DNA of 63,703 nucleotides, the filler included, from an uncultured Methanosarcinales archaeon (GTDB lineage Archaea; Nanobdellota; Nanobdellia; Woesearchaeales; UBA12501), in assembly GCA_964397315.1 (NCBI GenBank). It is 3 parts of 3 records of this genome, joined end to end, with 100 filler letters (N's around TTAATTAATTAA, not from the genome) between each part and the next. Parts side by side here need not be neighbours in the genome. Positions count along the whole stretch, not along the records: positions 27,444 to 46,778 come from CAYNHV010000003.1; 2 more parts are not named here. One strand, written 5' to 3'. Made by a program: the position numbers. The stretch's first letter is position 1. Every line of letters begins with the position of its first letter. Below are positions 36,001-39,000 of this stretch, one piece after another.

Positions 36001-39000
36001 TCATGCAATCATCATCCCTTCCATCTGAAAGCCATGTTCCTTAAAAACCTTTATAAACAAGCTGTTATACCGGAATTTTGATGAAACGAACCCATACATG
36101 CGGAGAGCTGACAAAAAAGCATGAAAAGAAGAAGGTCACGCTCCAGGGATGGGTGGGCACAAGGAGAGACCATGGCGGCCTGATATTCATAGACCTGAGG
36201 GACAGGCACGGCATCACCCAGATAGTGCTTGACCCGAAATCAAAGGGCTTTGAGCAGGCAGAGCACCTCAGGAGAGAGGACTGCATCCAGGTTACAGGAG
36301 ATGTGAGGCCCAGGCCAAAGGACATGGAAAACCCCGGTCTGAAGACAGGCTACATTGAGGTTTACGTGTCAAAAGAGCTGTTCATACTCAACAAGGCGGA
36401 CACGCCCCCTCTTGAGGTTGATGACAGGAAGGTTGCCAATGAAGAGGCGAGGATGAAGTACAGGTATATTGATTTGAGAAGGCCTGAGATGCAGGAGAGG
36501 CTTGCATTAAGGCACAAGGTGGCTCAGGAAGCGAGAAATTATCTCACTTCAAAAGGCTTTCTGGAGATAGAGACTCCCATGCTTGTGAGGGCAACTCCTG
36601 AAGGGGCAAGGGATTATGTTGTTCCCTCAAGGGTCAACCAGGGAAAGTTCTATGCTCTTCCCCAGTCACCCCAGCTCTACAAGCAGCTGCTCATGGTGTC
36701 AGGCTTTGACAGATATTTCCAGATTGTAAAGTGCTTCAGGGATGAGGACCTGAGGGCAGACAGACAGCCTGAGTTCACCCAGATTGACATGGAAGCAAGC
36801 TTCGTGGACGAGGAGGACATATTCAGCATCGTAGAAGGGATGATGTGCAGGCTGCTTGAGATAATAGGGGTTAAGGTAAAAAAGCCTTTCCCAAGGATGA
36901 CATACCGCGAGGCAATGGAGAGGTACGGCTCTGACAAGCCGGACACAAGATTCGGGCTTGAGCTTGTTGACGTGACAGACATTGTTAAGGATTCAGATTT
37001 TGAGGTTTTCACAAAGGCAATAAGCTCAGGCGGAAAGGCAAAATGCATTAATGCAAAGGGATGCGCGGAATTCTCAAGAAAAGAGATTGAAGAGTTGACT
37101 GACTTTGCCGCAATATATGGGGCAAAAGGCCTTGCGTGGATGAAGGTCAATGACAAGGGAGAGCTTGAAAGCTCAATAATGAAATTCTTCCCTGAGAAGG
37201 TGCAGAAGGAGCTTGCCGGAAGGACAGGCGCGGAAAAAGGCGACCTTCTCCTGTTCGTCTCAGACCACAAGCACTTTGTTGTTGACGACTCCCTAGGGAA
37301 CCTAAGGCTGAAGCTGGGTGAAAAGCTCGGCCTCATACCAAAGGACAGGTTCAGCTTTGTGTGGATCACAGACTTTCCGCTTCTGGAGTATGATGAGGAT
37401 ATGCAGAGGCACATAGCAGTGCATCATCCTTTCACATCCCCAAAGGAGGAGGACCTGCCGCTCATGGACAAGGATCCCTCAAATGTGAGGGCCAGGGCGT
37501 ATGATCTCACTCTCAATGGAGTTGAGCTTGGAGGGGGTTCAATAAGGATACGCCGGAGGGAAGTGCAGGAGAGAATGTTCAGGGTTCTTGGAATAACAAA
37601 AGAGGAGGCAGAGCAGAAGTTCGGTTTCCTCCTCAACGCTTTCAGGTACGGAGCTCCCCCTCATGGAGGCATTGCATTCGGCTTTGACAGGCTCATAGCG
37701 CTCATGGCAGGAGTGCCTGATAATGACATCAGGGAAGTGATAGCATTCCCAAAGAACAAGGCAGCAGAATCCCCTGTTGACGGAGCTCCCACAGACATAG
37801 ACCCTGAACAGCTGAAGGAGCTGAGCATCAAGTCCACTGCTGAGGAGAGAAGCGGCGTGTTTGAAAGAATAAAGGACATGCTTGACGCCAAAGGCATTGA
37901 CTATGAAGTTCTGGAGCACGAGCCGGTGTTCACCTCAGAGAAGGCTGCTGAGGCAAGGGGAACAGGCAGGAAGCAGGGCTGCAAGGCGCTTGTCGTGAAG
38001 AAACAGAAGGGGTATGTAATGGCTGTCGTGTCAGGAGACAGCGAGCTTGACCTCAAAAAGCTGTCCTCTGTAACAGGGGAGAGCAGGTTAAGGCTGGCCA
38101 ACGCAGAGGAAGTAAAGCAGGTGACAGAATGCCACATCGGGTCAGTCCCTCCCTTCGGAAACCTGTTTGACATTCAGGTGTATTTTGACAGGGCAGTCAG
38201 CAGGAATGAGACAGTGGCTTTTAGTGCAGGCTCTCACACAAGTTCAATAAAGATGAAGTACAAGGACCTTTTGTCAGTCACAAAAGGCAAGGAAGCGGAG
38301 TTCTCCAAATGACACGCCAGAAAGGAATAATAAAACCAAAACTTGTGGTATTTGACCTTGACGGAGTGATATTTGAGCATGATAATTTCTACAGCCAGAT
38401 GCATGAGAGGTACAGCACAGAAGAAAAGGGCAGAGCCCTTGAGAGAAAGTACCTGAAGAGCAACACGCAAAAGCTGGCAGAGCTTGTGATAGGAAAGCTC
38501 TGGGCAGGAAAGAGCGACAGGGAATACTGGAGCCTGATAGAGAAAGCCAGATTTAATCCAGGAGCTGAGGAGGCAGTAGCAGAGCTGAAGAGAAAGGGCA
38601 TAAAGACGATGATACTCACCTCTGCTGTTGAGGACCTTGCCAGAAAGGCCCAGAAGGAGCTTGGCATAGATTATGTGGCTGCAAACTGGATGGAAACAAA
38701 AGAGGGGAAAATAACAGGCAGGTTCAGGTGGAGGATATTATGGGACGGCAAGGGCCTCATTCTGGAGGACTTCTGCAGGGACAATGGAATAAGGCTTGAG
38801 CAGACCGCATGCGTTGGGGATAATGAGAATGATGTGTCCATGATGAGAAAAGCGGGCTTGAGCATAGCATTCAATACCCGCTCTGAAACACTGAAAGAGC
38901 AGTGTGATGTTGTGATAGACAGCAATGACCTTAGGGAAATACTTAAATATGTCAGCTGAAAATTCCATTTCATGGTTCTGCAGCAGGGGCTCATCTTCGC

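What a model noticed while it worked through the whole genome (the two positions that open the first line are those of the whole stretch)
36081..38312. Non-discriminating bacterial-type AspRS fused to a YbaK/ProX-family deacylase domain
The only aspartyl-tRNA synthetase of this archaeon (g00274, 743 aa) is a bacterial-type enzyme (59% identical to Firmicute Asp/Asn-type AspRS) that carries an extra C-terminal 150-aa YbaK/ProX-type aminoacyl-tRNA deacylase domain and lies 2 kb upstream of gatC-gatA-gatB; no AsnRS gene was called. I propose that this is the first AspRS with a cis-acting editing domain: a proofreading module that polices the indirect Asn pathway (for example hydrolysing Asp-tRNA(Asn) that escapes the amidotransferase, or a near-cognate mischarged tRNA(Asp/Asn)). 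AspRS is textbook 'editing-free'; a conserved editing fusion in Woesearchaeota and some CPR bacteria would be a new quality-control step in translatio [...]
Evidence so far: pfam.tsv: tRNA_anti-codon 19-81, tRNA-synt_2 120-560, GAD 310-401, tRNA_edit 613-731 (E 6e-34); g00274 is the only tRNA-synt_2 gene. Swiss-Prot best hits Asp--tRNA(Asp/Asn) ligases, 58-59% over residues 1-585 of ~600-aa proteins, i.e. the last ~155 aa are extra. Search with residues 585-743 only: 94 of 94 hits (E<=1e-3, length window 408-1301, query included) carry PF04073 together with PF00152; named ones are Woesearchaeota/Nanoarchaeota AspRS and CPR (Roizmanbacteria, Beckwithbacteria) 'aspartate--tRNA(Asn) ligase'. Domain alone vs PDB: best 3op6 (uncharacterised, E 1e-19), putative trans-editing enzyme TTHA1699 2cx5 (2e-12), APE2540 1wdv, ProXp-ala 5vxb, YbaK 2dxa/1dbu; motif HIGSVPPFG pr [...]
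(Added by a program. Inside this text positions count along the whole contig: they may not be those of the stretch shown here. "Call 12" and the like, gene names such as g00115 and contig names such as C1 are that model's own, and its searches are not shown. The text may have been shortened before it was handed on; [...] marks where a part breaks off. The agent that wrote the report below was given it as the finding of a first reader that could run no searches.)

Follow-up and report, generated by a model that had tools for sequence, protein, structure and literature searches.

The report
AspRS fused to a proofreading deacylase
An archaeal aspartyl-tRNA synthetase carries an extra, apparently active proofreading domain of the YbaK/ProX type, which has not been described for this enzyme family, and relatives keep the same two parts fused or side by side.

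Summary
Window 36081-38312 (+) encodes a 743-aa bacterial-type AspRS with a C-terminal tRNA_edit (YbaK/ProX, INS-superfamily) domain. It is the only class IIb synthetase and the only tRNA_edit domain found in this 93%-complete genome. No AsnRS was found, and gatC/gatA/gatB lie 2.2-7 kb downstream.

New here:
- The deacylase family is fused to three AspRS backbones, or encoded directly downstream of aspS.
- The catalytic Lys and the GxxxP loop are kept in 143 of 143 fused domains.
- The domain co-exists with ProRS enzymes that have their own editing domains.
- The free-standing form sits next to discriminating-like aspS genes in genomes that have AsnRS and lack GatB.
- Within the order, its presence anticorrelates with the D-aminoacyl-tRNA deacylase DTD2.

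I read it as an AspRS-dedicated post-transfer editing module that checks the aminoacyl group. D-Asp is the best-supported candidate substrate, on mixed evidence. The substrate is inferred, not shown. Eight of my nine literature searches looked for this fusion or its family and found no paper on it. It is a new variant of a known kind.

The parts
36081..38312 (+). aspS-edit fusion gene, 743 aa plus stop
36135..36323 (+). anticodon-binding OB fold (res 19-81). R28, D30 and the G81-M82 pair of the L1 loop belong to the signature shared by AspRS of GatB-containing genomes
36438..37760 (+). class II catalytic domain (res 120-560) with the bacterial GAD insertion (res 310-401, 37008-37283)
37761..37856 (+). 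C-terminal tail and linker (res 561-592). AF2 pLDDT is below 50 at 563-573 and 581-590
37857..38309 (+). INS/YbaK/ProX-fold deacylase domain (res 593-743). H613, R626, K635 (37983-37985), G687-P691 (38139-38153) and D703 are invariant or nearly so
40553..40861 (+). gatC
41606..43042 (+). gatA (a PHP-domain gene at 40884-41630 lies between gatC and gatA)
43744..45165 (+). gatB (a creatininase-family gene at 43039-43728 lies between gatA and gatB)

Best explanation
The C-terminal 150 residues are a working aminoacyl-tRNA deacylase of the INS (YbaK/ProX) superfamily that has become a dedicated editing module of AspRS. AspRS charges tRNA(Asp), and here also tRNA(Asn). The flexible CCA-aminoacyl end can then reach the tethered domain. 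There the conserved Lys (K635) would steer A76, and the G687-xxx-P691 loop would stabilise hydrolysis of an ester that carries the wrong aminoacyl group. The module inspects the aminoacyl moiety chosen by AspRS, not the identity of the tRNA. This is why the same deacylase clade accompanies both ND-type and discriminating-like AspRS. The best-supported candidate substrate is D-Asp-tRNA(Asp/Asn), that is, chiral proofreading of the kind DTD2 does. Another non-cognate amino acid is nearly as likely. Shown: the architecture, the fold, conservation of the catalytic motifs, recurrent fusion and adjacency to aspS, and the phyletic patterns. Inferred: hydrolytic activity, action on AspRS-charged tRNA, and the substrate.
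For: Catalytic competence. K635, G687, P691 and R626 are kept in 143 of 143 unique AspRS-fused domains; H613 and D703 in 142 of 143. K635 aligns with the catalytic Lys of ProXp-ala, ProX and 3op6, and GSVPP aligns with the GxxxP loop. The AF2 domain model has pLDDT 94 and TM 0.89 to T. thermophilus ProX.

Link to AspRS.
- The domain is fused to bacterial-type AspRS with GAD, to bacterial-type AspRS without GAD, and to archaeal-type AspRS.
- Of the 80 best genome loci, 38 are fused, 14 lie directly downstream of aspS, 1 lies downstream of gatB, 3 have an Asx gene nearby, and 24 stand alone.
- The Woesearchaeal fused clade is sister to a small clade that contains an aspS-adjacent free gene.

Not a ProRS helper. 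G050 has a bacterial ProRS with INS and G071 has an N-terminal tRNA_edit-ProRS fusion. Both also carry the AspRS fusion.

Independent of the Asn route. Free-standing clade members: 12 of 18 lie in AsnRS+GatB- genomes. The adjacent aspS in G003, G037, G080 and G106 is discriminating-like at the 18 columns that best separate the classes.

D-Asp lead.
- E. coli AspRS esterifies D-Asp, and P. abyssi DTD2 hydrolyses D-Asp-tRNA(Asp) (passages of PMC1807948).
- DTD1 was found in 1 of 151 genomes of the order.
- DTD2 is present in 13 of 33 clade-bearing genomes against 74 of 96 genomes without any tRNA_edit domain (Fisher p 1.7e-4).
- The difference holds within strata: 2/12 against 31/44, and 8/16 against 38/49.
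- It also holds in independent pairs on an AspRS tree: 13 pairs, with DTD2 going the opposite way in about 8.1, the same way in 0.1, and no difference in 4.8 (median p 0.008).
Against: No activity is shown. AspRS is regarded as specific enough to need no editing.

Against D-Asp in particular:
- 8 of 15 fused genomes still have DTD2.
- 5 of 5 large-genome bacteria with a free homologue have DTD1.
- In a CPR class the trend is weak: DTD1 in 0/14 fused, 4/22 free and 35/165 other genomes (p 0.075 and 0.24).
- Asp/Glu racemase is not enriched: 0/15 fused, 6/18 free, 28/118 others.
- No INS-fold enzyme is known to select by chirality.

Limits of the pair test: it used 89 genomes that I had picked for another purpose, and a gene tree rather than a species tree.

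For the rival: all 15 fused genomes of the order sample have GatB, and one genome fuses an INS-like domain to GatB.
Confidence: 0.45

Rival explanations
1. Sentinel of the indirect Asn pathway. The domain hydrolyses L-Asp-tRNA(Asn) that leaves ND-AspRS without being handed to GatCAB. Where GatCAB is absent, it hydrolyses Asp-tRNA(Asn) made by residual non-discrimination.
For: All 15 fused genomes of the order sample have GatB and 13 lack AsnRS. Their AspRS carries the signature shared by all GatB-containing genomes. gatC/gatA/gatB lie within the fetched flank in 13 of 38 fused loci and in this window. Operons gatD-gatB-aspS-edit-gatC-gatA occur (L211, L197), and a gatA-gatB-edit arrangement occurs in L214. 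G073 has a tRNA_edit::GatB fusion. In the CPR class only 4 of 201 genomes have AsnRS.
Against: Asp-tRNA(Asn) is the obligatory intermediate, so a cis hydrolase would be futile unless it is kinetically outcompeted. A small domain on AspRS would have to tell tRNA(Asn) from tRNA(Asp). 12 of 18 free clade members are in AsnRS+GatB- genomes, next to discriminating-like aspS. On the domain tree the Woesearchaeal fused domains form essentially one clade, so the association with GatB may rest on very few events. The GatB-fused domain scores only 49 bits against this domain and may belong to another clade. This reading offers no explanation for the DTD2 pattern.
Confidence: 0.2
2. A general ProX-type trans-editing factor (for example Ala- or Abu-tRNA deacylase acting on tRNA(Pro) or several tRNAs). 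It would be merely co-expressed with or tethered to AspRS, using the synthetase as a tRNA-binding platform or for stoichiometric expression in reduced genomes.
For: The closest characterised relatives are ProXp-x/ProX (2cx5, bound to Ala-SA in 2z0k) and ProXp-ala. Residues equivalent to ProXp-ala H23, K45, K50 and R80 are present in this protein (PMC10164551 passages). JGI's automatic name for free relatives is Ala-tRNA(Pro) deacylase. This genome's ProRS is archaeal-type with no INS, and this is its only tRNA_edit domain. 24 of 80 loci stand alone, including those from the non-CPR bacteria.
Against: Fusion occurs only to AspRS: 94 of 94 hits in the long-protein search, on three backbones. Tight aspS-edit operons exist. 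G050 and G071 keep the AspRS fusion although their ProRS has its own editing domain. The R80 equivalent is variable among fused domains (K 87, D 14, R 12, N 12, E 8, T 5 of 143). The family profile matches the uncharacterised 3op6 far better (118 bits) than ProX (68 bits) or ProXp-ala (52 bits).
Confidence: 0.15
3. A non-hydrolytic appendage. The domain would hold or shield the aminoacylated CCA end (a hand-over aid within the transamidosome) or add tRNA affinity.
For: Other synthetases carry C-terminal tRNA-binding appendages. NCBIfam holds a model of an AspRS-GatC fusion (NF009460), which this protein matches only over its AspRS part and below cut-off. The domain lies close to the gat genes.
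Against: The Lys, the GxxxP loop and further pocket residues are strictly conserved in 143 of 143 fused domains. Free-standing orthologues occur in GatB-lacking genomes.
Confidence: 0.07

Closest known systems
INS superfamily trans-editing proteins: ProXp-x/ProX (T. thermophilus TTHA1699, PDB 2cx5/2z0k) and ProXp-ala (C. crescentus, 5vxb)
   Same: Same fold (TM 0.89 to 2z0k/2cx5), same catalytic Lys and GxxxP loop, about 150 aa, and presumably the same ester-hydrolysis chemistry.
   Different: Those are free-standing, or fused to or inserted in ProRS, and act on tRNA(Pro) or on Abu/Ala-tRNAs. This domain is fused to or operonic with AspRS. It has a family-specific invariant Arg (R626; the aligned residue is V, L, H or K in 2cx5, 1wdv, 3op6 and 5vxb). 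It co-exists with ProRS-borne editing domains.
PDB 3op6 (lpg1207, Legionella pneumophila), deposited as an uncharacterised 'oligo-nucleotide binding protein'
   Same: By far the best profile match (2.3e-33, 118 bits; 1.2e-19 with the single sequence). It probably represents the same INS-superfamily cluster.
   Different: It is free-standing, has no known function, and lacks the invariant Arg. I could not see which of the uncharacterised clusters (ProXp-7, -8 or -9 of Kuzmishin Nagy 2020) it belongs to, because that chapter is not in the library.
Cis-editing domains of class II synthetases (ProRS INS; ThrRS and AlaRS editing domains)
   Same: A hydrolytic domain in the same polypeptide as the synthetic site, which would receive the CCA end after transfer.
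   Different: It is appended by a low-confidence linker at the extreme C-terminus rather than inserted. The full-length AF2 model has pTM 0.70 and linker pLDDT below 50. AspRS is not among the seven families listed as having editing domains.
D-aminoacyl-tRNA deacylases DTD1 and DTD2
   Same: Possible functional analogy. DTD2 hydrolyses D-Asp-tRNA(Asp), and its presence anticorrelates with this deacylase clade in the order.
   Different: There is no homology in sequence or fold. The analogy rests on comparative genomics only and is contradicted in large-genome bacteria.
Non-discriminating bacterial-type AspRS with GatCAB (transamidosome)
   Same: Bacterial aspS equivalog with GAD. No AsnRS, with gatCAB downstream.
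   Different: It carries the extra deacylase domain. The host is an archaeon whose whole order uses bacterial-type AspRS (134 of 151 genomes).

Membership tests
INS / YbaK-ProX superfamily (Pfam PF04073 tRNA_edit) | Profile match above the curated cut-off | tested here: met
   114.7 bits against a cut-off of 25.5, residues 613-731
INS / YbaK-ProX superfamily (Pfam PF04073 tRNA_edit) | YbaK/ProX fold | tested here: met
   AF2 domain model pLDDT 94.1. Foldseek TM 0.89 to 2z0k/2cx5, 0.82 to 3op6, 0.85 to 1dbu
INS / YbaK-ProX superfamily (Pfam PF04073 tRNA_edit) | Nearly universal catalytic Lys (K45/K46) and GxxxP loop | tested here: met
   K635 and G687-P691 are aligned, invariant in 35 family members and in 143/143 fused domains
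INS / YbaK-ProX superfamily (Pfam PF04073 tRNA_edit) | Aminoacyl-tRNA deacylase activity | not testable with these tools
   Needs an enzyme assay
YbaK proper (Cys-tRNA(Pro) deacylase, TIGR00011 / NF007951) | Equivalog score above cut-off | tested here: not met
   72.3 bits against 153.25, and 25.9 bits against 243
[quoted passage not shown] | Family residues H23, K45, K50, R80 and closest similarity to 5vxb | tested here: inconclusive
   H613, K635, K640 and R669 align with them in this protein. R669 varies among fused domains. The family profile scores 52 bits to 5vxb against 118 bits to 3op6
ProXp-x (2cx5-type) | Closest similarity to the 2cx5 cluster | tested here: inconclusive
   It is the second-best PDB hit (68 bits), well below 3op6. 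No cluster definitions were available
Bacterial-type AspRS (TIGR00459 / NF001750) | Equivalog score above cut-off, with the GAD insertion | tested here: met
   796 and 857 bits (cut-offs 374 and 443); GAD 310-401
Non-discriminating AspRS | No AsnRS in the genome | tested here: met
   A single PF00152 match in a 93%-complete genome; no TIGR00457 match
Non-discriminating AspRS | GatCAB present alongside GatDE | tested here: met
   gatC, gatA and gatB in the window; GatD on C27 and a GatE-like ORF on C26
Non-discriminating AspRS | Anticodon-domain features of ND enzymes | tested here: met
   It shares the signature (R28, D30, I35, G81-M82, T108, P109...) found in nearly all of the 55 sampled AspRS from GatB-containing genomes that carry the ND-type enzyme (a few rows deviate at several columns). 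The signature is absent from 32 of 33 AspRS of AsnRS+GatB- genomes. It was defined here, not taken from experiments
Non-discriminating AspRS | A tRNA(Asn) gene, and charging of it with Asp | tested here: inconclusive
   tRNA detection is poor in this genome (21 by ARAGORN, 17 by Rfam). Only implausible intron-bearing Asn/Asp calls appear at a relaxed threshold
Cis-editing synthetase | CCA-end translocation between the synthetic and editing sites of one polypeptide | not testable with these tools
   Full-length AF2 gives pTM 0.70 with a low-confidence linker.

The most novel reading that the evidence does not exclude
A YbaK/INS-fold domain has been recruited as an AspRS-resident chiral proofreader. 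It would hydrolyse D-Asp-tRNA(Asp/Asn) at the synthetase that makes it, and would partly replace DTD2 in DPANN archaea (and DTD1 in some CPR bacteria). That would add both an eighth synthetase family with editing and a third, unrelated fold for D-aminoacyl-tRNA clearance.
Probability: 0.25. Interest if true: 0.85.

Novelty: new variant of a known kind. Interest (0 to 1): 0.72.

Why it matters
AspRS is treated as a synthetase that needs no proofreading, and editing domains are listed for only seven synthetase families. Here a conserved, catalytically intact deacylase stays fused or operonic with aspS across Woesearchaeales/Nanoarchaeota and CPR bacteria. This implies an error made by AspRS that matters in these cells. 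The work gives a directly testable candidate list: D-Asp, another near-cognate amino acid, or Asp-tRNA(Asn). It also assigns a probable functional context to an uncharacterised INS-superfamily cluster that already has a crystal structure (3op6). Finally, it shows that one archaeal order carries two flavours of bacterial-type AspRS that track GatCAB against AsnRS.

Tried and rejected
- DTD replacement as a simple rule: rejected. 8 of 15 fused genomes keep DTD2, and 5 of 5 large bacterial genomes with a free homologue keep DTD1.
- Endogenous D-Asp supply: Asp/Glu racemase is not enriched.
- The recalled ND determinant His31 of P. aeruginosa AspRS: it does not separate the two AspRS classes here, and a literature search did not retrieve the source.
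- tRNA(Asn)/tRNA(Asp) genes: not reliably found.
- Complex prediction of the G044 AspRS with its adjacent free deacylase gave no verdict (score 0.00). This is no evidence either way.
- The search for related loci with a 35-sequence alignment failed for lack of a conserved stretch. A narrower alignment worked.
- The domain tree (230 sequences, 154 columns, FastTree) is too poorly resolved to count fusion events exactly.
- On the AspRS tree the fused state changes 8 times among 10 fused rows, so single against multiple origin within the order stays open.
- Literature: searches found no paper describing an AspRS-YbaK/INS fusion. One search was a separate search on D-Asp and DTD2. The 2020 book chapter that defines ProXp-7/8/9 is not in the library and could bear on novelty.
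Full report
**What is there.** Window 36081-38312 (+) is one uninterrupted ORF of 743 aa.
- Residues 1-587 match the bacterial aspS equivalogs at 857 and 796 bits, and include the bacterial GAD insertion.
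- Residues 613-731 match Pfam tRNA_edit at 114.7 bits.
- The YbaK equivalog model is missed (72 bits against a cut-off of 153).
- In the window's own genome (61 contigs, 1.47 Mb, 93% complete) this is the only PF00152 match and the only PF04073 match. There is therefore no AsnRS, no class II LysRS, no archaeal-type AspRS, no free YbaK/ProX and no INS-bearing ProRS.
- The ProRS found on contig C17 is archaeal-type.
- gatC, gatA and gatB follow 2.2-7 kb downstream on the same strand, separated by HAD, EamA, PHP and creatininase genes.
- The window is three contig pieces joined by N runs, so the GatD gene at 47427-48740 is on another contig.
- AsnB-like genes are present. Asn can probably be made, but only the GatCAB route can load it on tRNA.

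**The domain looks catalytically intact.**
- Against solved structures, the single sequence hits 3op6 (1.2e-19), ProX/ProXp-x 2cx5 (2e-12), 1wdv, ProXp-ala 5vxb and YbaK.
- K635 aligns with the catalytic Lys and G687-S-V-P-P691 with the GxxxP loop.
- In 35 family members L, H, R, K, G, P and D are invariant, corresponding to H613, R626, K635, G687, P691 and D703.
- In 143 unique AspRS-fused domains K635, R626, G687 and P691 are kept in 143 of 143, and H613 and D703 in 142 of 143.
- AF2 models the domain at pLDDT 94.1. Foldseek gives TM 0.89 to T. thermophilus ProX, including its Ala-SA complex 2z0k.
- The full-length model has pLDDT 85.6 and pTM 0.70, with pLDDT below 50 at 563-573 and 581-590. 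The domain therefore looks tethered rather than rigidly packed.
- A family profile matches the uncharacterised 3op6 (lpg1207) at 118 bits, against 68 bits for ProX, 64 for YbaK and 52 for ProXp-ala. The family is thus a separate INS-superfamily cluster with a structure but no known function.

**The link to AspRS is recurrent.**
- A search of 1.84 billion representatives with the domain alone gave 4810 hits. The best are mostly free-standing proteins of about 155 aa at 40-50% identity.
- The long hits are AspRS of three kinds: bacterial-type with GAD (about 745 aa), bacterial-type without GAD (about 625 aa) and archaeal-type (about 600 aa).
- In one genome per species (GTDB), 273 relatives were found. 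Of the best 80 loci, 38 are fused, 14 lie immediately downstream of aspS (L237 probably too), 1 lies downstream of gatB, 3 have an Asx gene nearby, and 24 stand alone.
- The stand-alone loci include those from Planctomycetota, Acidobacteriota and Armatimonadota.
- Tight operons occur: aspS-edit-asnS (e.g. L192) and gatD-gatB-aspS-edit-gatC-gatA (L211, L197).
- On a low-resolution domain tree the Woesearchaeal fused domains form essentially one clade, next to an aspS-adjacent free gene. CPR fusions to archaeal-type and GAD-less backbones are interleaved.

**Distribution within the host's order.** I sampled 151 genomes from about 136 families. The counts include the unpublished G132, G112 and G121.

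| Feature | Genomes |
|---|---|
| Bacterial-type AspRS | 134/151 |
| AsnRS | 80/151 |
| GatB | 89/151 |
| tRNA_edit domain | 55/151 |

- Fifteen genomes have the AspRS fusion. Four of these are truncated or frameshifted, and G070 is assumed from ORF length only.
- Of the 15 fused genomes, 13 are AsnRS-GatB+, 2 have both, and none is AsnRS+GatB-. Without G132 the counts are 12, 2 and 0 of 14.
- Eighteen genomes have a free member of the same clade (70 bits or more to this domain): 12 are AsnRS+GatB-, 3 have both, and 3 are AsnRS-GatB+.
- Other INS-like domains occur on ProRS: bacterial INS in G026 and G050, and an N-terminal domain on archaeal-type ProRS in G071. One occurs on GatB (G073).

**A test between 'wrong tRNA' and 'wrong amino acid'.** I aligned 89 bacterial-type AspRS from the sample.
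- Nearly all of the 55 sequences that come from GatB-containing genomes and carry the ND-type enzyme (32 without edit, 10 fused, G073, 11 with both routes, G042) share one conserved signature. A few rows deviate at several columns. It lies largely in the anticodon-binding domain (R28, D30, I35, the G81-M/L82 pair of the L1 loop, T108, P109, E112, R116, ...).
- 32 of 33 sequences from AsnRS+GatB- genomes lack it; most have a 2-residue L1-loop deletion. The exceptions are G043 (ND-like) and G044 (discriminating-like although GatB+).
- The aspS genes that sit directly upstream of a free deacylase gene in AsnRS+GatB- genomes (G003, G037, G080, G106) are of the discriminating-like kind.
- The deacylase therefore accompanies both AspRS flavours. 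This is expected for a check on the aminoacyl group and is awkward for a dedicated Asp-tRNA(Asn) hydrolase.
- The signature was defined here from co-occurrence. It may be partly phylogenetic and has no biochemical backing.

**A lead on the substrate.** DTD1 is practically absent from the order (1 of 151), and DTD2 is found in 102 of 151.

| Genome group | With DTD2 |
|---|---|
| AspRS-linked clade, all | 13/33 |
| - fused | 8/15 |
| - free | 5/18 |
| Other tRNA_edit types | 15/22 |
| No tRNA_edit domain | 74/96 |

- The clade-against-none comparison gives Fisher p 1.7e-4, uncorrected for kinship.
- The difference persists within strata: AsnRS+GatB- genomes 2/12 against 31/44, and AsnRS-GatB+ genomes 8/16 against 38/49.
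- In phylogenetically independent pairs on the AspRS tree there were 13 pairs. DTD2 went the other way in about 8.1, the same way in 0.1, and did not differ in 4.8 (median p 0.008).
- The clade-bearing genomes that lack DTD2 are 86-100% complete.
- From passages of PMC1807948: bacterial AspRS esterifies D-Asp, and archaeal DTD2 hydrolyses D-Asp-tRNA(Asp).

Against this lead:
- Half of the fused genomes keep DTD2.
- In a CPR class (201 genomes, including the unpublished G223, which was not counted in the clade) DTD1 is in 0/14 fused, 4/22 free and 35/165 other genomes (p 0.075 and 0.24).
- 5 of 5 large-genome bacteria with a free homologue have DTD1.
- Asp/Glu racemase is not enriched.

**Verdict.**
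- Best reading (0.45): an AspRS-dedicated post-transfer editing module that inspects the aminoacyl group. D-Asp is the leading candidate (about 0.25), and another non-cognate amino acid is about as likely.
It is supported by the exclusive occurrence of the fused form in GatB-containing genomes and by the gat neighbourhoods.
- A generic ProX function keeps about 0.15. It is weakened by G050 and G071, whose ProRS enzymes have their own editing domains.
- A non-catalytic role keeps about 0.07.

**Novelty.** Eight literature searches found no description of the fusion or of this family. A ninth dealt with D-Asp and DTD2. A 2024 review (passages read) lists seven synthetase families with editing domains. 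It calls INS-superfamily members single-domain apart from the ProRS INS domain, while itself listing ProXp-ala fused to ProRS and plant ProXp-ala with an added C-terminal domain. The 2020 chapter that defines the uncharacterised clusters could not be read.

Noticed in passing
window 27344-27443 and 46779-46878: N runs. The window is a concatenation of three contig pieces (C2 end, C3:1-19335, C27 start), so genes on either side of these points are not physically linked.
   Followed up: yes
L026:1307-3169 (-) (genome G073): A 621-aa tRNA_edit::GatB fusion (tRNA_edit 25-142, GatB_N 158-434, GatB_Yqey 475-619) at the end of an aspS-gatC-PHP-FMN_red-gatA cluster. Its edit domain scores only 49 bits against the AspRS-fused domain.
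   Followed up: partly
L029:633-2630 (-) (genome G071): An archaeal-type ProRS (ProRS-C_1) with an N-terminal tRNA_edit domain. This architecture is described for protozoan ProRS but is here found in a DPANN archaeon that also has the AspRS fusion.
   Followed up: partly
order sample: Nearly the whole archaeal order uses a bacterial-type AspRS (134/151 genomes). It comes in two sequence flavours: one tracks GatB presence, the other tracks AsnRS-only genomes.
   Followed up: partly
L031, L036, L037, L040, L041, L056, L061 and L193, L196, L213, L230: A TGT (queuine/archaeosine tRNA-ribosyltransferase family) gene recurs between aspS-edit and asnS. tRNA(Asp) and tRNA(Asn) are classical queuosine targets in bacteria.
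   Followed up: no
window 40884-41630 and 43039-43728; L026: A PHP / RNase P p30-like gene lies between gatC and gatA both here and in G073. A creatininase-family gene lies between gatA and gatB here.
   Followed up: no
P0002 (448 aa), P0005 (491 aa), P0014 (303 aa): Proteins made of two or three tandem tRNA_edit domains of this family. Also found: a GmrSD_N-tRNA_edit fusion (P0053) and a tRNA_edit-Peptidase_S11 fusion (P0131).
   Followed up: no
own genome G000: Very few tRNA genes are detectable (21 by ARAGORN with introns, 17 by Rfam RF00005). Most calls carry introns, and no credible tRNA(Asn) or tRNA(Asp) was found.
   Followed up: partly
CPR class sample: AsnRS is found in only 4 of 201 genomes. 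Two of these carry the deacylase clade: G160 has a free gene about 1.5 kb from asnS, and G238 has a fused AspRS. This hints that asnS and the deacylase travel together.
   Followed up: no
L034 (genome G079, C12:7285-9487): The fused aspS-edit gene is split into two overlapping ORFs (351 and 439 aa). This is a frameshift or an assembly error.
   Followed up: no
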